Shown here: piece after piece, positions 35,015-41,988 of the stretch
How positions within the stretch are numbered: the stretch's first letter is position 1
Layout of the letters: each line of letters starts with the position of its first letter
Origin: Colwellia sp.
Lineage (GTDB): Bacteria; Pseudomonadota; Gammaproteobacteria; Enterobacterales; Alteromonadaceae
Length of the DNA: 64,000 nt
Direction: 5' to 3'
Assembly: GCA_016745015.1 (NCBI GenBank)
Contig: JADGDH010000001.1
Location: forward strand, 6,602-70,601
The notes under the pieces: model-generated
The model's database searches: none
What the model was told of the DNA's origin: nothing
What the model saw: only the letters and a program-made list of their open reading frames with translations
Position numbers and translations under genes: made by a program

Positions 35015-36835
35015 TTACAAAAACGATAACAATTCTTGATCAAGTTGCATCAAAGTTTTTGGATCTGCCATCATTGTTTTTGCTAATGACTTAGTTCTTG
35101 GCAACATACGTTCAAAGTAAAACTCTGCTGTTTTAATTTTTGCACGATAAAAATCACGGTTTTCAACGTCAGTCGCAAGCTTTTCATAAGATGTTTGTGC
35201 CATTTGAGCCCAAAAATAAGCCATCACTATATAGCCAGAATACATTAAGTAATCAACAGAAGCTGAACCAACAATATCTCTATCTTTCTTCGCTTTAAGC
35301 GCTAACCTAAGCGAGTATTGTTGCCAGTTTGCTACCGCTGCACCTAATGGCCATATAAATTTATTCATTTGACGTTTATGTGGGTTGCTTGAAATCATAC
35401 TTTTATCTTTGCAGAACATTAAAACTTCTTTAGCAAATGCTTTTAATGATTTACCGCGAGTAAGTAAAATTTTACGGCCAAGTAAATCTAACGCTTGTAT
35501 ACCTGTTGTTCCTTCATAAAGCGTTGCAATTCTAGCATCACGAACAATCTGCTCCATGCCCCACTCTTTAATAAAGCCATGACCACCAAATATTTGTAGG
35601 CCATGATTTGCACTTTCTGAGCCAAGCTCTGTTAAAAATGCTTTAAGGATTGGTGTAATAAAGCCTAAACGATCATCAGCTGCTGCTTTTTCAGCATCAG
35701 TTTTCGCCATTTCAATCTCATCAACAATTTTAGCTGTATAATAAATCATGGCACGCCCACCTTCAGAGATGGCTTTTTGTGTCAAAAGCATTTTACGAAC
35801 ATCTGGATGAACAATGATAGGATCAGCCACTTGATCAGGGAATTTTTTACCTGTAAGCGCACGCATAGACAAGCGTTCTTTCGCATAAATCAAAGAATTT
35901 TGATAAGCCAATTCAGCACTACAAATACCTTGTAAGGCAGTACCTACACGCGCAGTATTCATAAAGGTGAACATACATTCTAGCCCTTTATTTTCTGGCC
36001 CAATAAGTTCACCAACTGCATTGTCAAAATTTAACACTGCCGTTGCAGAAGCTTTAATGCCCATTTTATCTTCAATAGAACCACAAGTAACGTGATTAGA
36101 CTCACCTAAATTACCCTGCGCATCAGTTTTAATTTTAGGTACAATAAATAAAGAAATTCCACGAGTACCTGCAGGTGCTCCAGGCAGCCTTGCAAGCACA
36201 ATATGTATAATGTTATCAGTTAAATCATGATCACCTGCTGAAATAAATATTTTAGTGCCAGTAATATTATAGGTTCCATCTCCATTAGGCTCAGCTTTAG
36301 TTTTAACTTGTCCTAAATCTGTACCACATTGCGGCTCAGTTAAACACATAGTGCCTGTCCATGTACCTTCAGTTAATCGAGTTAAATACAACTCTTTTTG
36401 TGCTGCGCTACCATGAGTTTGTACCGTATTCATCGCTCCATGACTTAAACCTGGATACATAGTCCAAGACCAATTAGCTGTACCCATCAGTTCTGATTTG
36501 ATCATACCCAGCGATGGTGGTAAACCTTGACCGCCATGCTCAAGAGGATGAGATAGGCTTTGCCAGCCTCCTTCAACATATTTGTTATATGCTTCCTTAA
36601 AACCTTTTGGGGTAATTACATTGCCATTATCATAAGTACAACCTTCTTTATCACCGCTTTGGTATAAGGGTAATAGCTCATTTTCACAAAACTTTGCACA
36701 CTCTTGTAAAATAGCATCAGTTAGATCAGGTGTTGCCTCTTCAAATTCAGGATATTTTTTATAGTGATCATAATAATCAAATACATCTTCCATTAAAAAC
36801 TTAATGTCTGCTATGGGTGCTTTGTAACTAAGCAT
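35015..36835 (-). CDS. Acyl-CoA dehydrogenase (long, about 600 aa family)
   Basis: GTMCLTEPQCGTDL, GTKIFISAG, KMGIKAS, FGGHGFIKEWGMEQ..RDARI...YEGTTGIQA. Confidence 0.92.
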   Translation of the reverse strand: MLSYKAPIADIKFLMEDVFDYYDHYKKYPEFEEATPDLTDAILQECAKFCENELLPLYQSGDKEGCTYDNGNVITPKGFKEAYNKYVEGGWQSLSHPLEHGGQGLPPSLGMIKSELMGTANWSWTMYPGLSHGAMNTVQTHGSAAQKELYLTRLTEGTWTGTMCLTEPQCGTDLGQVKTKAEPNGDGTYNITGTKIFISAGDHDLTDNIIHIVLARLPGAPAGTRGISLFIVPKIKTDAQGNLGESNHVTCGSIEDKMGIKASATAVLNFDNAVGELIGPENKGLECMFTFMNTARVGTALQGICSAELAYQNSLIYAKERLSMRALTGKKFPDQVADPIIVHPDVRKMLLTQKAISEGGRAMIYYTAKIVDEIEMAKTDAEKAAADDRLGFITPILKAFLTELGSESANHGLQIFGGHGFIKEWGMEQIVRDARIATLYEGTTGIQALDLLGRKILLTRGKSLKAFAKEVLMFCKDKSMISSNPHKRQMNKFIWPLGAAVANWQQYSLRLALKAKKDRDIVGSASVDYLMYSGYIVMAYFWAQMAQTSYEKLATDVENRDFYRAKIKTAEFYFERMLPRTKSLAKTMMADPKTLMQLDQELLSFL

Positions 36836-37123: not shown

Positions 37124-37160
37124 AAATAAAAACCGCTAAGATTAACTAGCGGTTTTATTT
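37124..37160 (-). terminator. Intrinsic terminator after the TonB-dependent receptor
   Basis: AAATAAAAACCGCTA...TAGCGGTTTTATTT inverted repeat. Confidence 0.75.
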
Positions 37161-37186: not shown

Positions 37187-40180
37187 CTAGAATGTATATT
37201 CAGCACCTGCATAGTAAAATGCTCCATTAAAACCAAATGGTGCAGAACGACGAGAATAGGTAAATACCCCTTGACTGTCTACAACCGAGTTACCACTGCC
37301 ATCAACAATACTTCCTGTTCGAGAGTTACCAATCTCATTTTTGTCTGGGTAAACATCAAATAAGTTATTGCCACCAATATTAAATGATAAGTTATCAGTC
37401 ATTTGATAACTAACACGCAAGTCAGTTAATACTTCTGCGCCATAGGTTTGTCTACCGCCATCAGTAATAGTGTATTCGCCATAACGATTAAAAGCTAAAT
37501 TAACAGTAAAATCACCAACTCTATACAAACCACTTAAGCTTATGCGATCTTGTGGTTGCCATTCTTCAATAATAGAAATATCTTGCTCAGAAAATATTTC
37601 TTCTGGTGGAATATCACCTAACCCACTATCTTCTGGCGCAAAAATACTCACCACATCTGTTTCTGTGAAATTAGCAGCAAACGTTAAATCTAAATCTCCA
37701 CCTAATAACTCAGTATTCCAAGTTGCAATAATATCAATGCCTGTTGTTTCAGTATCAGCACCATTTAAGAAAAACTGTCCACCTCCAGCACCAGAAGCTT
37801 TTAAAGCTGCATCTAATGCAGGAGATAAGCCTTGTCCTAAGGAATTACTTAGTACAATGCGATCATCGATGTTAATCGAATACCAATCAATGGTTAAGTT
37901 TATATTATCGCTAAGTTGAATAACGGTACCTAAACTTAAGTTAGTCGACTCTTCTTCTTTTAATTCTGGAATACCAATAGCTTGTGCTAAAGTAGAATCA
38001 TTGCGAAAGGTACCAACTTGAACGGCAATTTGGTCACCGCTAGGATCATCTGGGTTACTTTTAAACTGAGTACTGATATTATTGAAGTATAATTGCTGCA
38101 TTGATGGCGCTCTAAAACCTGTACTCACAGCACCACGAATAGCTATAGTTTCGGTTAAAGACCAATTAGCGGCAAGTTTGAAATTGGTACTATCACCAAA
38201 ACCTTCATAGTCATCATAACGAGCGGCTCCGCTAACAATTAAATCTTCAGTGACTTCCATTTCTACATCCGCATAGAAAGAGATAACATCACGAGTTTCA
38301 TCAACCGCTGAAACAGGGCCTATACCACCAAAACCTTGAGTACCAGCACTTCTATCTGTAGCAAACAAACTTTCACCCAAAACGGTATCGTAATCTCTAA
38401 AAGAATACTCATCACCAGGAGTAATTTTATAGGTGTCAGTTCGAATTTCGGCGCCCATTGCTAATGAGAATAGTTCGAAGTCTTGAGTATAATCAAGATT
38501 CAAGGTTGATAAGGCTAGCTCTAATCCGTAAGCAAAAGCTTCGCGAGGCACAGAGTTACGAATTTCATCGGGTGTAATGTTTGCAAGAGAGCCATCAGCA
38601 TTATATTGCAATGCGTTAGCAAAAGATGAGTTAATTGTATCACTCGTTTTATAGTCAATATTATTTTGACCATAGGTATATGAAAAATCTAAACCTGCAC
38701 CATTTTCAAATTCAGTTTGATAACCAAAGTTATAAGAAACATCCTTAATGTCTGAATTTATTTTAGGTAAAAATCCTGCAGGGATAGTAGCATCACCATC
38801 TTGTAAAGGGGCATTACCCCCATTATTCGCATTATGACGGAAAAAAGCAGCAGATTCGTTATCACGCTTTGAGTAGGTGATAAAACCGTAAAGCTCACCA
38901 TCGCCTAATTGATAACCGGTATTAACTGTTAAACCAAACTGATTTGAATCAGCATCACCAATTCTAAAGGTATTACGAGTTGCCGTAGCTTCACGCGGAT
39001 CACCTAACAACATACTGCCATTACCAGCATCGGTACAACCAGAAAATTGACAAGAACCGTGTAAACCAGCTCTGTTGGTATAACCGCGATCACGAAAATT
39101 TAATGTCGTATTTAAATAACCACTATCACCTAATGCAAAGCCTTTTGATATATCAATATTGGTGGTTTCACCATCTCCTTCTGAGTACTCTCCATAATTT
39201 ACTGCCACCTTACCGCCATCATCAGCATCATTTAAAACAATATTAATTACCCCTGCAATAGCATCAGAGCCATACTGGGCTGCTGCACCATCTCGTAATA
39301 CTTCTATACGTTTTATTGCAGCAGCGGGAATAGCATTCATGTCTGTGCCTGCGGTGCCTCGCCCCACTGAAGTGTTAATGTGAATTAAACTGGCTTGGTG
39401 ACGACGTTTACCATTAATAAGTACTAGGGTTTGATCTGGTCCTAAGCCACGTAAGGTTGCTGGACGTAAGGCATCGGTGCCATCACTAATAGCTGAACTG
39501 GAAAAATTAAAAGAAGGCGCAATAGCTTGTAGCATTCTACCTACTTCAGTTTGGCCTGTATTAGCTAAAGCTTCAGCTGAAAGAATATCAACAGGTACTG
39601 GTAAGTCATCGGCTGATCGGCCTGCTACACGGCTACCAATAATAGATATTTTTTCTACTTCTTGTTCTGCTACCTGCGCTGGTTCTTGAGCCAAAGCAGT
39701 TTGACTAGCAGCACCTAATATCATAGGCACCAAAACGGTTTTTATTGTTTTATTTTTCATTGTTGTAATTCCTCTATAGTGTTTATCAACTTGAATGCTC
39801 AGTTGACCAGAGTTATTAACAACAGCGATTAAGCCAGAACCCTCTAATAATTTTTTTAGGCCTGACTCTACTGAGTAGTAGCCTTTTAATGTATTTGCTT
39901 GATGTTGCTTAGTTAAATCAAACGAAAATATAATGGTTTTATTCGCCTTTTGTGCAAATGCAATTAAAGCTTTGTCAGCTCGCTGTTTATCAATATCAAA
40001 GCGATTCAAATTATCAGCATAAACCCTTGAAGCACTAAACAGCATTAACACAATAGTGAAAATAGTGAAGATACTTTTGAATCTAGCTGTATTTTGAAGC
40101 AAACGAAATAACTTTCGCCAACTGTGCAGTATTAATAAACAGGTGAGCAGGAGAAATCCTCTATTTTTTATAAAAACCAA
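37187..40180 (-). CDS. TonB-dependent receptor/transducer with N-terminal STN signalling domain; probable second start at 39760
   Basis: Signal ending RVYA, STN (FDIDKQRADKALIAFAQKANKTIIF...LKKLLEGSGL), TonB box EKISIIGSR, plug (LRGLGPDQTLVLINGKRRH, IEVLRDGAAAQYGSDAIAGVINI), C-terminal YYAGAEYTF. True upstream start codon uncertain. Confidence 0.92.
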   Translation of the reverse strand: MVFIKNRGFLLLTCLLILHSWRKLFRLLQNTARFKSIFTIFTIVLMLFSASRVYADNLNRFDIDKQRADKALIAFAQKANKTIIFSFDLTKQHQANTLKGYYSVESGLKKLLEGSGLIAVVNNSGQLSIQVDKHYRGITTMKNKTIKTVLVPMILGAASQTALAQEPAQVAEQEVEKISIIGSRVAGRSADDLPVPVDILSAEALANTGQTEVGRMLQAIAPSFNFSSSAISDGTDALRPATLRGLGPDQTLVLINGKRRHQASLIHINTSVGRGTAGTDMNAIPAAAIKRIEVLRDGAAAQYGSDAIAGVINIVLNDADDGGKVAVNYGEYSEGDGETTNIDISKGFALGDSGYLNTTLNFRDRGYTNRAGLHGSCQFSGCTDAGNGSMLLGDPREATATRNTFRIGDADSNQFGLTVNTGYQLGDGELYGFITYSKRDNESAAFFRHNANNGGNAPLQDGDATIPAGFLPKINSDIKDVSYNFGYQTEFENGAGLDFSYTYGQNNIDYKTSDTINSSFANALQYNADGSLANITPDEIRNSVPREAFAYGLELALSTLNLDYTQDFELFSLAMGAEIRTDTYKITPGDEYSFRDYDTVLGESLFATDRSAGTQGFGGIGPVSAVDETRDVISFYADVEMEVTEDLIVSGAARYDDYEGFGDSTNFKLAANWSLTETIAIRGAVSTGFRAPSMQQLYFNNISTQFKSNPDDPSGDQIAVQVGTFRNDSTLAQAIGIPELKEEESTNLSLGTVIQLSDNINLTIDWYSINIDDRIVLSNSLGQGLSPALDAALKASGAGGGQFFLNGADTETTGIDIIATWNTELLGGDLDLTFAANFTETDVVSIFAPEDSGLGDIPPEEIFSEQDISIIEEWQPQDRISLSGLYRVGDFTVNLAFNRYGEYTITDGGRQTYGAEVLTDLRVSYQMTDNLSFNIGGNNLFDVYPDKNEIGNSRTGSIVDGSGNSVVDSQGVFTYSRRSAPFGFNGAFYYAGAEYTF

Positions 40181-40279: not shown

Positions 40280-41374
40280 TTACTTAGCATAAGCGAGTAA
40301 TATTGTGTTATCAGCACGTTTGCTAAAACTGATATTAAAGTTACTATTGAGTGACGCTAATAACCCATCAACATCATTAGCTTTAAAATAACCAGACACT
40401 TTAACATTGGCTATTTCAGGGTCTACTATTTCAAATTGGTTTGAAGTATATCGACTTACTTCAACTAATGCGGTTGATAATAATTCACCATTAAACACAA
40501 GCATGCCTTGTTGCCAAGCAAGATCTCGTTGTACTTGATCTAATGATATTTTTTGTACTGGCGTAGCAATGTCTTGCTCTATTGTAGCTTTTTCACCTGA
40601 CGTAACTAAAATGCCAGGAAGGTCTATAGCCGCCGTATTTTCATTTGAAATAAGCAATGTTTGTTTTATTATTTCAATAGCTTCGCTTGCTTTGGTAATC
40701 AATACACGGCCTTCAGTGACCATTAATTCCATTTCATGATCACCGTCTTTTTGTACATTAAAAATAGTACCTAAAGCGGTAAAAGATTTTTCACCTGATG
40801 TGACAGTAAATGGTCGAGATTTATCTTTAGCAACATCAAATCTCGCTTCACCTCTAACCAATGTTAGTTGGCGATAGGATACTGTATAAGCTACTTCAAC
40901 AACACTATTAGTATTTAATTGAATATGAGTACCATCACTCATAGTGAAAGTACTTTGTTCACCAATGGGACTACTTAAGATTTGCGTTTGCATTAGGGTT
41001 TGTTCATGAAGAGAGGATAAAAACGGCAAAAATGATTCATCCATGAATGTGTTAACACCGAGTAAAGACACGAGTGCAACACTAGCGGCTAAGGCAATAG
41101 CAGCAAATTTATTACTGGGTTTATTGCTTTTTTCTAAAGGGAATAACCCACTTAACTCATTAAGTACAGAGAGATCATCCCAATAAGAAGCCATTTCAAA
41201 TAAGGTACTATGATGACTTGTATTTTGATTACACCAAATAACTAGCTCTTGTTGTTCGCTTGGGTTTAAACCACGATCCATACGACTTATCCAAAGACAA
41301 GCTTGTTCTTGAATTTGTTCTTTAGAATAAAATTGGCTAATATTATTGGTTTGCATATTCATGTACTTACTCAT
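40280..41374 (-). CDS. FecR-family anti-sigma / transmembrane sensor
   Basis: N-terminal EQACLWISRM...W, one TM segment, GEQSTFTMSDGTHIQLNTNS, ALGTIFNV, AWQQGMLVF. Confidence 0.92.
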   Translation of the reverse strand: MSKYMNMQTNNISQFYSKEQIQEQACLWISRMDRGLNPSEQQELVIWCNQNTSHHSTLFEMASYWDDLSVLNELSGLFPLEKSNKPSNKFAAIALAASVALVSLLGVNTFMDESFLPFLSSLHEQTLMQTQILSSPIGEQSTFTMSDGTHIQLNTNSVVEVAYTVSYRQLTLVRGEARFDVAKDKSRPFTVTSGEKSFTALGTIFNVQKDGDHEMELMVTEGRVLITKASEAIEIIKQTLLISNENTAAIDLPGILVTSGEKATIEQDIATPVQKISLDQVQRDLAWQQGMLVFNGELLSTALVEVSRYTSNQFEIVDPEIANVKVSGYFKANDVDGLLASLNSNFNISFSKRADNTILLAYAK

Positions 41375-41400: not shown

Positions 41401-41988
41401 TTAACGACCATTTGGCTGCGCTTTTACTTTATTTATTTGAACGTTAGAGCTTTGCTTAGTGTTATAGTTCATCTTTTTCATGTATTGTACACTTTTTAAT
41501 AACCCTTTCGCCACATGCTTCTCAACAGTACTTTCACTCAACTGTAAATATTGCGCTATTTCTTTTTGGCTTAAACCATAGACTTTTTTTAAAATAAAGC
41601 ACTTACGTACAGAGCTTGATAGTTGGTCGGTGGCGCGGCAAAAAGATAAAAAACGTTCTTTCGATTCGTAATCATCTTCAAAGGTTGCGCTAGTTAATTC
41701 GACAGGCGGCTCAACAAAATCCTCTATAGAGTCGTTGAATTTATTATCCCATTTAGCATTATGGTTAAAGGCAAGGTTTTGCGCTGTTTTAAGCATATAA
41801 CTGCGGGCGTACTTAATTTCTTTTTTCAGATTGGCTTCGTAGCTACGAACAAAAGTTTCTTGCACGATATCATCAATATCATCAGTTTTTACGATACGAC
41901 TAATAAAACCACGAATAGTATTTTTATAATCGAGGAAGATATCAGTGAGTTTATTTTTATTATTTTTTTTGTTGGCCATTTTAGTCAT
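41401..41988 (-). CDS. ECF sigma factor (FecI-like)
   Basis: DDIVQETFVR region 2; CFILKKVYGLSQKEIAQYLQLSESTVEKHVAKG region 4; directly upstream of the FecR gene. Confidence 0.92.
   Translation of the reverse strand: MTKMANKKNNKNKLTDIFLDYKNTIRGFISRIVKTDDIDDIVQETFVRSYEANLKKEIKYARSYMLKTAQNLAFNHNAKWDNKFNDSIEDFVEPPVELTSATFEDDYESKERFLSFCRATDQLSSSVRKCFILKKVYGLSQKEIAQYLQLSESTVEKHVAKGLLKSVQYMKKMNYNTKQSSNVQINKVKAQPNGR

What the first reader, a model, noticed from the sequence alone, without database searches (positions are those of the whole stretch)
39690..40180. TonB transducer with a second RBS, ATG and signal peptide after its STN domain: two receptor isoforms from one gene?
Seen in sequence: the long ORF reads signal peptide 1 (...FTIVLMLFSASRVYA), then a complete STN domain, then ...KHYRGITT-MKNKTIKTVLVPMILGAASQTALA-QEPAQ, then the TonB box. 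The internal ATG at 39760 has a strong SD (AGAGGAA, 8 nt upstream), which is what encodes the RG of HYRGITT. It begins a standard Sec signal: basic n-region, hydrophobic core, ALA/Q cleavage site. Established: FecA/FpvA-type transducers have one signal peptide and a polar STN-plug linker. Inference: the gene makes a long signalling form (STN contacts the adjacent FecR) and a short 857-aa transport-only form, setting the signalling-to-uptake ratio by translation. Alternatively, signal peptidase cuts the internal site and releases STN as a separate periplasmic polypeptide. Either would be a cell-surface signalling design I do not recall being described.
Basis: partly seen in the sequence, partly recalled or inferred. 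Interest (0 to 1): 0.8.

Follow-up and report, generated by a model that had tools for sequence, protein, structure and literature searches.

The report
Receptor gene with nested second start
A marine bacterium's outer-membrane nutrient sensor gene carries, just after its signalling domain, a complete and evolutionarily conserved second ribosome-binding site, start codon and export signal, so one gene very probably makes both a signalling receptor and a shorter transport-only receptor.

Summary
ORF 37187..40180(-) reads signal peptide 1, STN signalling domain, then AGAGGAA, 8 nt, ATG (39760), then MKNKTIKTVLVPMILGAASQTALA|QEP, TonB box, plug and barrel. An ECF sigma gene and a FecR gene lie directly upstream.

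The internal element is not chance and not a dead relic:
- 87 of 120 homologs keep Met plus a hydrophobic core; 25 have lost both.
- In 80 named genomes from five families of marine Gammaproteobacteria it is ancestral and was lost in only three clades.
- Where Met is absent but the core is intact, the codon is GTG or TTG, behind GGAGG or AGGAG.
- An SD core precedes the internal start in 50 of 67 loci, against 3 of 488 control Met codons. It uses the rare AGG codon throughout Pseudoalteromonas.
- The mRNA around the start is among the least folded 1-4% of windows in the gene.
- Two Colwellia species have STN-less orthologs that begin exactly at this ATG.

Best reading (about 0.7): a cell-surface-signalling cassette was fused onto a complete receptor gene, and the old RBS and signal peptide are kept by selection as an internal start. 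No protein-level evidence exists, and I found no published description. New variant of a known kind; interest 0.62.

The parts
41401..41988 (-). ECF (FecI-type) sigma factor gene
   Evidence: Pfam Sigma70_r4_2 and Sigma70_r2. An ortholog was found upstream in 76 of the 80 related loci, and in every locus with enough upstream DNA.
40280..41374 (-). FecR-type anti-sigma / sigma regulator gene
   Evidence: Pfam FecR and FecR_C. An ortholog lies between sigma and the receptor gene in 78 of the 80 related loci; the other two are cut off upstream.
40103..40163 (-). Block-conserved non-coding element TAGAGGA-N14-CTGTTTA...TGGCGAAAG..TTTCGT upstream of SP1. Probably the ECF-dependent promoter plus a small leader hairpin.
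   Evidence: DNA alignments. Conservation has no 3-base periodicity, and one locus has a 1-nt indel. It is the only meaningful copy in the genome. The hairpin keeps its pairing through compensatory changes in other genera. The function is inferred.
40016..40129 (-). Signal peptide 1 region of the long isoform (h-region IFTIFTIVLMLF, cleavage VYA|D). True start codon unresolved: CTG 40129, TTG 40102, GTG 40051 or ATG 40045.
   Evidence: A hydrophobic core plus AxA is conserved before STN in all homologs. Gene callers chose different starts (proteins of 914-1012 aa).
39788..40006 (-). STN signalling domain (residues ~59-131)
   Evidence: Pfam STN 27.3 bits. AF2 pLDDT >90. Foldseek to the PupB, FpvA and FecA signalling domains. 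Purifying selection: 516 synonymous against 334 non-synonymous codon differences.
39769..39775 (-). Internal Shine-Dalgarno AGAGGAA (read as Arg-Gly in the long frame)
   Evidence: An SD core is conserved in 50 of 67 loci against 0.6% of control Met codons. The Arg codon is AGR in every lineage, and is AGG in Pseudoalteromonas where AGG is 1% of Arg codons.
39758..39760 (-). Internal in-frame ATG, start of the 857-aa short isoform
   Evidence: The homologous codon is ATG, GTG or TTG wherever the h-region is intact. The STN-less orthologs in G007 and G018 start here. The surrounding mRNA is unstructured.
39689..39760 (-). Signal peptide 2: MKNKTIKTVLVPMILGAASQTALA, predicted cleavage ALA|QEP
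   Evidence: It lines up with the true N-terminal signal peptide of the STN-less paralog on contig C132 of the same genome (57.5% identity over 179 aa, starting at residue 4). The AF2 model shows no confident structure there (pLDDT <50).
39629..39655 (-). TonB box EKISIIGSR
   Evidence: Nearly invariant in the alignments. Assigned from its position and from the known TonB-box pattern.
39248..39610 (-). Plug domain
   Evidence: Pfam PF07715, E 2.9e-20.
37361..38884 (-). TonB-dependent receptor beta-barrel
   Evidence: Pfam PF00593, E 1.1e-36.
37129..37156 (-). Terminator-like hairpin after the stop codon
   Evidence: Consensus scan: 11-bp stem followed by a T-run.

Best explanation
The gene is a FecA-type TonB-dependent transducer of a sigma/FecR cell-surface-signalling system. 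It arose when a cassette (ECF promoter, signal peptide 1, STN domain) was joined in frame onto a complete TonB-dependent receptor gene. The receptor's own 5' leader, RBS, start codon and signal peptide were kept, and now form the STN-to-TonB-box linker.

Selection has kept that internal RBS, start and signal peptide working. One mRNA therefore yields two outer-membrane proteins:
- A full-length receptor, exported by SP1. Its STN domain talks to FecR.
- An 857-aa STN-less receptor, started at ATG 39760 and exported by SP2, which is cut after ALA. It can transport but cannot signal.

The upstream start has no recognisable ATG with an SD, while the internal one has a strong SD, an A-rich start region and open mRNA. 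The short form is therefore predicted to be the more abundant product.

Shown here: the anatomy, the conservation and co-loss of the start features, and natural alleles that use the internal start.
Inferred: that both products are made in this organism, their ratio, and any role in tuning the signalling feedback.
For: Anatomy and context:
- Elements read directly from the sequence. The STN fold is confirmed.
- Sigma and FecR are conserved upstream wherever the loci extend far enough (sigma in 76, FecR in 78 of 80).

The internal start behaves as a start:
- 87 of 120 homologs keep Met plus an h-core; 25 lost both.
- On a barrel tree of 75 loci the start is ancestral across Colwelliaceae, Shewanellaceae, Alteromonadaceae, Pseudoalteromonadaceae and an Endozoicomonas. 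It is degenerate in three clades.
- Where the h-core is kept without Met, the codon is GTG behind TGGAGGAA (L065, L069, L071) or TTG behind CAGGAGC (L056).
- The SD core is present in 50 of 67 loci against 3 of 488 control Met codons, in at least seven different codon contexts. Pseudoalteromonas uses AGG, which is 1% of its Arg codons.
- The -20..+20 window has a mean MFE of -1.1 against -5.4 kcal/mol for the gene background, and sits at the median in the least structured 3.7% of windows.

The start is competent in nature:
- G007 and G018 carry orthologs about 90% identical that lack sigma, FecR and STN. They begin at this ATG with the same RBS.
- In G009 and G012 a tandem second receptor has a stop-riddled STN remnant but an intact RGITTM-ATG-SP2.
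- SP2 is positionally homologous to the N-terminal signal peptide of an STN-less paralog in the same genome.

The long form is also real:
- The frame is open with no stops in genus relatives.
- STN is under purifying selection.
Against: - There is no protein, Ribo-seq or N-terminomic evidence for either product. RNA runs were available only as assembled contigs of relatives. They show one continuous transcript through FecR, STN and plug, which neither proves nor excludes internal initiation.
- The internal start is dispensable. Three clades lost it, and three sampled degenerate genes (L025, L027, L028) have no second receptor gene nearby.
- SignalP was not available, so SP2 was judged by rules and homology.
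- One large Colwellia group has only a weak SD (AAGAGAGA).
- The counts are not phylogenetically independent.
- The start codon of the long form is unresolved, so the predicted ratio is speculative.
Confidence: 0.7

Rival explanations
1. Neutral fossil. The internal RBS, ATG and signal peptide are only the unerased remnant of the gene fusion. Any internal initiation is incidental noise with no selected function.
For: - A fusion origin is well supported: the linker is the translated 5' leader of the STN-less alleles.
- The element has decayed in about a quarter of homologs, and in three clades without visible compensation.
Against: - The features persist across five families while the peptide sequence itself drifts.
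- Start-codon identity is kept through ATG to GTG or TTG switches.
- The SD is kept by rare codons.
- Once constraint is lifted, decay is fast. L045 has lost SD, Met and h-core at a barrel distance of about 0.2 from L029.
Confidence: 0.13
2. The hydrophobic segment works inside the full-length protein. Either signal peptidase cuts at ALA|Q and frees a soluble periplasmic STN polypeptide, or the segment serves as a hydrophobic tether or docking element for FecR.
For: - The h-core and the AxA motif are conserved.
- The segment has no confident fold in the AF2 model, so it could be a flexible linker.
Against: - It does not explain conservation of a start codon (M, V or L by way of ATG, GTG or TTG), of the SD, or of open mRNA.
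- After SP1-led export the segment enters SecYEG N-out, so the AxA site would not face leader peptidase in the normal orientation (inference from established Sec and LepB topology).
- The segment is freely lost in clades that keep STN, FecR and sigma.
Confidence: 0.08
3. In this genome only the short receptor is made. The SP1-STN stretch would be an untranslated or barely translated leader, because no convincing start codon precedes it.
For: - No ATG with an SD lies upstream of SP1, and gene callers disagree on the start.
- In G009 and G012 a decayed copy of this region does serve as a mere leader for the second receptor.
Against: - The STN frame is intact and under purifying selection in this and more than 100 related genes.
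- The SP1 h-core plus AxA is conserved.
- FecR and sigma are retained.
Confidence: 0.05

Closest known systems
TonB-dependent transducers of cell-surface signalling (E. coli FecA, P. aeruginosa FpvA/FoxA, P. capeferrum PupB, S. marcescens HasR) with FecI/FecR-type partners
   Same: - Same gene order: sigma, FecR, receptor.
- Same domain order: signal peptide, STN, TonB box, plug, barrel.
- The STN model superposes on the PupB, FpvA and FecA signalling domains.
   Different: The known members have one signal peptide and a short polar STN-to-TonB-box linker (my knowledge of these proteins). Here the linker is a complete, conserved RBS, start codon and Sec signal peptide. I found no report of a second translation product for any transducer in four full-text searches.
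Bacterial in-frame nested genes that give N-terminally truncated isoforms by internal initiation (ClpB 93/79, IF2 alpha/beta, CheA-L/CheA-S; two-polypeptide phage endolysins, PMC9430671; riboproteogenomic N-terminal proteoforms, PMC11005335)
   Same: One ORF holds a second in-frame start with its own SD. The short product lacks an N-terminal regulatory domain.
   Different: Here both isoforms are exported, each by its own cleavable signal peptide, and both end up in the outer membrane. The short form drops a trans-envelope signalling domain. Neither product has been shown experimentally.
Fusion proteins with an internal signal sequence, e.g. Bradyrhizobium FbcH cytochrome b/c1 precursor
   Same: A signal-peptide-like segment sits inside one ORF as the result of joining two coding units.
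   Different: There the internal signal works post-translationally within one polypeptide that is then cleaved. Here the evidence (start codon and SD conservation) points to separate initiation.

Membership tests
TonB-dependent transducer (FecA/FpvA-type CSS receptor) | N-terminal signalling (STN) domain upstream of the TonB box | tested here: met
   Pfam STN 27.3 bits, just under the 28.4 cut-off. NCBIfam FecA N-terminus E 2.4e-10. AF2 pLDDT >90. Foldseek to the PupB, FpvA and FecA signalling domains, probability 1.00.
TonB-dependent transducer (FecA/FpvA-type CSS receptor) | Plug domain and TonB-dependent beta-barrel | tested here: met
   PF07715 E 2.9e-20 and PF00593 E 1.1e-36.
TonB-dependent transducer (FecA/FpvA-type CSS receptor) | Adjacent ECF sigma and FecR-type regulator genes | tested here: met
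   Pfam hits on both upstream ORFs. The arrangement is conserved in the related loci (sigma in 76, FecR in 78 of 80).
TonB-dependent transducer (FecA/FpvA-type CSS receptor) | Single N-terminal signal peptide with a polar STN-to-TonB-box linker | tested here: not met
   The linker is an SD, an ATG and a 24-aa signal-peptide-like segment. This is the variant feature.
TonB-dependent transducer (FecA/FpvA-type CSS receptor) | Substrate-dependent activation of the sigma factor through FecR | not testable with these tools
   Needs a reporter assay. The substrate is unknown: NCBIfam hits to siderophore and haem receptor families are all far below their cut-offs.
In-frame dual-start (nested) gene | Internal in-frame start codon with its own ribosome-binding site, conserved as such | tested here: met
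   ATG, GTG or TTG conserved. SD in 50 of 67 loci against 3 of 488 controls. Open mRNA around the start.
In-frame dual-start (nested) gene | Both polypeptides detected | not testable with these tools
   No proteomic or Ribo-seq data were reachable. RNA contigs of relatives show only a continuous transcript.
Sec (SPase I) signal peptide, for the internal segment | Basic n-region, hydrophobic h-region of 7-15 residues, small residues at -3 and -1 | tested here: met
   n-region MKNKTIK (+3), h-region TVLVPMILGAA, c-region SQTALA|Q. The same segment is the real N-terminus in the STN-less orthologs and in a paralog. SignalP was not run.

The most novel reading that the evidence does not exclude
A family of marine cell-surface-signalling receptors is built as a two-in-one gene. 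A weak upstream start gives a few STN-bearing sensors. A strong nested start with its own signal peptide gives many signal-blind transporters. This would fix the sensor-to-transporter ratio at the level of translation and damp the positive feedback of the sigma loop.

The promoter-SP1-STN-RBS2-SP2 module also behaves as a portable cassette that can bring a whole receptor gene under sigma control. It is found on two receptor families whose barrels are about 30% identical. When duplicated, its STN part decays into a leader while RBS2 and SP2 persist.
Probability: 0.4. Interest if true: 0.75.

Novelty: new variant of a known kind. Interest (0 to 1): 0.62.

Why it matters
Cell-surface signalling is treated as a system in which one receptor does both jobs, sensing and transport. 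A conserved nested start that makes a signal-blind copy from the same mRNA would be a new way to set signalling gain. It would also be an example of two exported isoforms, each with its own signal peptide, from one bacterial ORF.

It bears on annotation: pipelines call only the long form, with inconsistent starts.

It bears on evolution: it shows how a regulatory cassette can capture a complete gene by in-frame fusion without erasing the old start.

The design occurs in culturable species, including Pseudoalteromonas haloplanktis, P. atlantica, P. distincta, Shewanella hanedai and Colwellia psychrerythraea strains, so it can be tested directly.

Tried and rejected
- Subfunctionalisation after duplication. 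The idea was that the internal start is lost only where a tandem short receptor exists. It held in the genus sample: G009 and G012 are the only genomes with a degenerate SP2 and the only ones with a tandem second receptor. It failed for three other degenerate genes that have no second receptor. Rejected as a general rule.
- Upstream extension as coding sequence. The conserved 'RGFLLLTCLLILHSWRK' read upstream of SP1 is a non-periodic DNA block with a 1-nt indel in one species. It is more likely a promoter and leader. The true long-form start stays open.
- RNA evidence. The window itself is held only by DNA metagenomes. RNA runs matching a Pseudoalteromonas ortholog are assembled contigs without strand or 5' ends. 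Not decisive.
- Broad survey of STN domains over 121 Gammaproteobacteria. The hits were almost all PilQ-type secretins. The few transducers found (five copies in one genome) have polar linkers. Uninformative about how general the design is.
- A second copy of the promoter-like block in the own genome. Only one chance-like hit was found.
- The sigma-70 promoter scan inside the STN region gave fewer hits than shuffled sequence. There is no support for an internal promoter, but it is not excluded.
- Four literature searches found no description of the design.
Full report
**1. What is there**

The finding lies on the minus strand. ORF 37187..40180(-) is 997 aa counted from a TTG. It reads, in order:
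- A hydrophobic leader ending ...IFTIFTIVLMLFSASRVYA|DNLNRF.
- An STN domain.
- ...QVDKHYRGITT, then MKNKTIKTVLVPMILGAASQTALA|QEPAQVAEQEV.
- The TonB box EKISIIGSR, a plug and a beta-barrel.

The internal ATG is at 39760..39758. AGAGGAA (39775..39769) lies 8 nt upstream and is read as Arg-Gly in the long frame. From that ATG the ORF is 857 aa. FecR (40280..41374-) and an ECF sigma gene (41401..41988-) lie directly upstream on the same strand.

The STN assignment is sound:
- Pfam scores 27.3 bits, just below its 28.4 cut-off.
- The NCBIfam FecA model matches residues 42-162.
- An AlphaFold2 model built on 29 homologs gives pLDDT above 90 for the domain and below 50 for the SP2 segment.
- Foldseek places the domain on the signalling domains of PupB, FpvA, FecA, PupA and HasR.

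**2. Is it more than chance, and is it conserved?**

A search restricted to the N-terminal 230 residues found 423 full-length homologs, of which 120 were listed.

Among those 120:
- 87 have a Met followed by a hydrophobic core at this place.
- 25 have neither.
- 4 have only a Met and 4 only a core.

The peptide itself drifts while its features stay. Examples:
- Colwellia: MKNKTIKTVLVPMILGAASQTALA.
- Other Colwellia: MKHKSIHAALVPILLGAASQAALA.
- Shewanella: MKKTTIAALIPLVIGTTSQVALA.
- Psychrobium: MKKTTLAALIPALLATGQSAIA.
- Pseudoalteromonas: MKKLSGVSAAVLPLLMATNSQAVNA.

Eighty loci from named genomes were fetched. Wherever the locus reaches far enough upstream, sigma and FecR are there (sigma in 76, FecR in 78 of the 80). 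On a tree of the barrels, the internal start is ancestral across Colwelliaceae, Shewanellaceae, Alteromonadaceae, Pseudoalteromonadaceae and an Endozoicomonas. It is degenerate in three clades, each on a longer branch.

**3. The element behaves as a translation start, not just as a hydrophobic linker**

(a) Start-codon identity is conserved, not the amino acid. In the lineages with an intact core but no Met, the codon is GTG behind TGGAGGAA (L065, L069, L071). In L056 it is TTG behind CAGGAGC.

(b) An SD core (AGGA, GGAG or GAGG at -15..-5) precedes the internal start in 50 of 67 loci. It precedes only 3 of 488 in-frame Met codons in the mature part of the same genes.
- It occurs in at least seven different codon contexts: AGA GGA, AGG AGT, GGG AGT, AGG AAG, AGG ACA, AGG AAT and AGG AGA GGA.
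- The Arg is always AGR. In about 30 Pseudoalteromonas genes it is AGG, which makes up 1% of Arg codons in those genes.
- One large Colwellia group has only AAGAGAGA.

(c) The mRNA from -20 to +20 around the start has a mean MFE of -1.1 kcal/mol, against -5.4 for other windows of the same genes. At the median it lies in the least structured 3.7% of windows.

(d) When the element is lost, the SD, the start codon, the basic n-region and the core all go together.

These counts are not phylogenetically independent. The variety of sequence contexts and the three separate losses nevertheless argue for selection.

**4. Natural alleles show that the start is competent**

Two species of the same genus (G007, G018) carry orthologs about 90% identical in the barrel. 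They lack sigma, FecR and STN within 5 kb. They begin exactly at this ATG, with the same upstream bases...AAACATAGAGGAATGACAACAATG and ...AATAAGAGAGAGATAATAATG.

In G009 and G012 a second, tandem receptor of another family ('type B', barrel about 30% identical) is preceded by a decayed copy of the promoter block, SP1 and STN. That copy is full of stop codons, yet RGITT-ATG-SP2 is intact and opens an ORF of 812-816 aa. A metagenomic relative still has this second gene with an intact STN.

In the window's own genome, the closest STN-less paralog (contig C132) starts with its signal peptide exactly where SP2 aligns.

**5. The long form is real too**

- In 13 genus relatives the frame runs 986-1004 aa without stops.
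- STN shows 516 synonymous against 334 non-synonymous codon differences among eight Colwellia genes.
- A hydrophobic core plus AxA precedes STN in all homologs.

What is not clear is where the long form starts.
- Upstream of SP1 lies a block-conserved DNA element: TAGAGGA-N14-CTGTTTA...TGGCGAAAG..TTTCGT (40163..40103).
- It has no 3-base periodicity and carries a 1-nt indel in one species, and I take it to be the only meaningful copy in the genome.
- I read it as the sigma-dependent promoter plus a small leader hairpin (inference).
- No ATG with an SD follows it. The candidates are CTG 40129, TTG 40102, GTG 40051 and ATG 40045.
- Gene callers chose many different starts.

**6. Most likely mechanism**

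A signalling cassette was fused in frame onto a complete receptor gene. The linker DKHYRGITT is the translated old 5' leader, and SP2 is the old signal peptide. Selection keeps them functional as a nested start.

One transcript therefore gives an STN-bearing transducer and a signal-blind 857-aa transporter, each exported by its own signal peptide. RNA contigs of a relative run unbroken from FecR through STN into the plug, which fits a single transcript.

The weak or odd upstream start and the strong internal one suggest that the short form dominates. That would limit how many receptors engage FecR. Published work shows that the STN of a transducer binds and protects the anti-sigma factor even without signal (PMC11637429, abstract as listed). 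The number of STN-bearing receptors should therefore matter. This functional step is inference.

In the full-length chain, SP2 follows an already translocated domain. It has basic residues on its N side, acidic residues on its C side, and a core of only 11 residues interrupted by Pro and Gly. It should therefore pass through SecYEG rather than anchor or be cleaved. This too is inference from the established Sec and LepB mechanism.

**7. Limits**

- No protein-level data exist.
- The start is dispensable. Three sampled genes with a decayed linker keep sigma, FecR and STN and have no second receptor nearby.
- SignalP could not be run.
- A broad STN survey returned mostly secretins and said nothing about generality.
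- Earlier notes of this scan report the same design in other genomes and in receptor families with other TonB boxes. I treat these as leads only.

**8. Novelty**

Four full-text searches found no description of a nested start or second signal peptide in a TonB-dependent transducer. A classic survey of receptor N-terminal extensions does not mention it.

In-frame dual starts are known for cytoplasmic proteins (ClpB, IF2, CheA) and for phage endolysins. I therefore class this as a new variant of a known kind. It is well supported comparatively, untested experimentally, and easy to test.

Noticed in passing
window 40103-40163 (minus strand): A block-conserved, non-periodic DNA element lies upstream of SP1: TAGAGGA-N14-CTGTTTA...TGGCGAAAG..TTTCGT. 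It is conserved from Colwellia to Pseudoalteromonas, where it reads AGCGGA/AGTGGA. Its 3' part forms a small hairpin that keeps pairing through compensatory changes: Shewanella GGCAAAC-GTTA-GTTTGCC, Psychrobium GACGAAA-GACA-TTTCGTC. It is probably the ECF promoter plus a leader structure.
   Followed up: partly
window 40045-40129 (minus strand): The start codon of the long isoform is unresolved. No ATG with an SD is present. The codon homologous to CTG 40129 is TTG, CTG or GTG in 18 of 23 lineages. Public gene calls for homologs range from 914 to 1012 aa.
   Followed up: partly
L021 2233-5141; L022 2172-5147; L026 10007-12766; L050, L059, L061: The same promoter-SP1-STN-RBS2-SP2 module sits on a second receptor family whose barrel is about 30% identical. 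It occurs either alone behind sigma-FecR or as a tandem second gene. In G009 and G012 its STN part has decayed into a stop-riddled leader, while the RBS, ATG and SP2 remain intact. This looks like cassette or promoter capture.
   Followed up: partly
L020 (G013:C1:1259367-1259813): Another STN-receptor family in a Colwellia genome shows its own internal signal-peptide-like segment, MANYKKNKVSSAVFAVLSTVATLPATA|DTE, before its TonB box IIEVRG. The ortholog in L016 has a polar linker. The L020 frame closes after 222 aa, which may be a frameshift.
   Followed up: no
L003 (G023:C12:449125-449616): In one Colwellia MAG the frame opens only inside STN (QTTKQRADKALIAF...), so SP1 and the first STN strand are lost while the internal start is intact. 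This may be STN decay in progress or an assembly error.
   Followed up: no
window 35015-36835 (minus strand): The next gene downstream is a 606-aa acyl-CoA dehydrogenase with the Acyl-CoA_dh_C extension. A terminator-like hairpin (37129-37156) separates it from the receptor gene. It gives no clue to the receptor's substrate.
   Followed up: no
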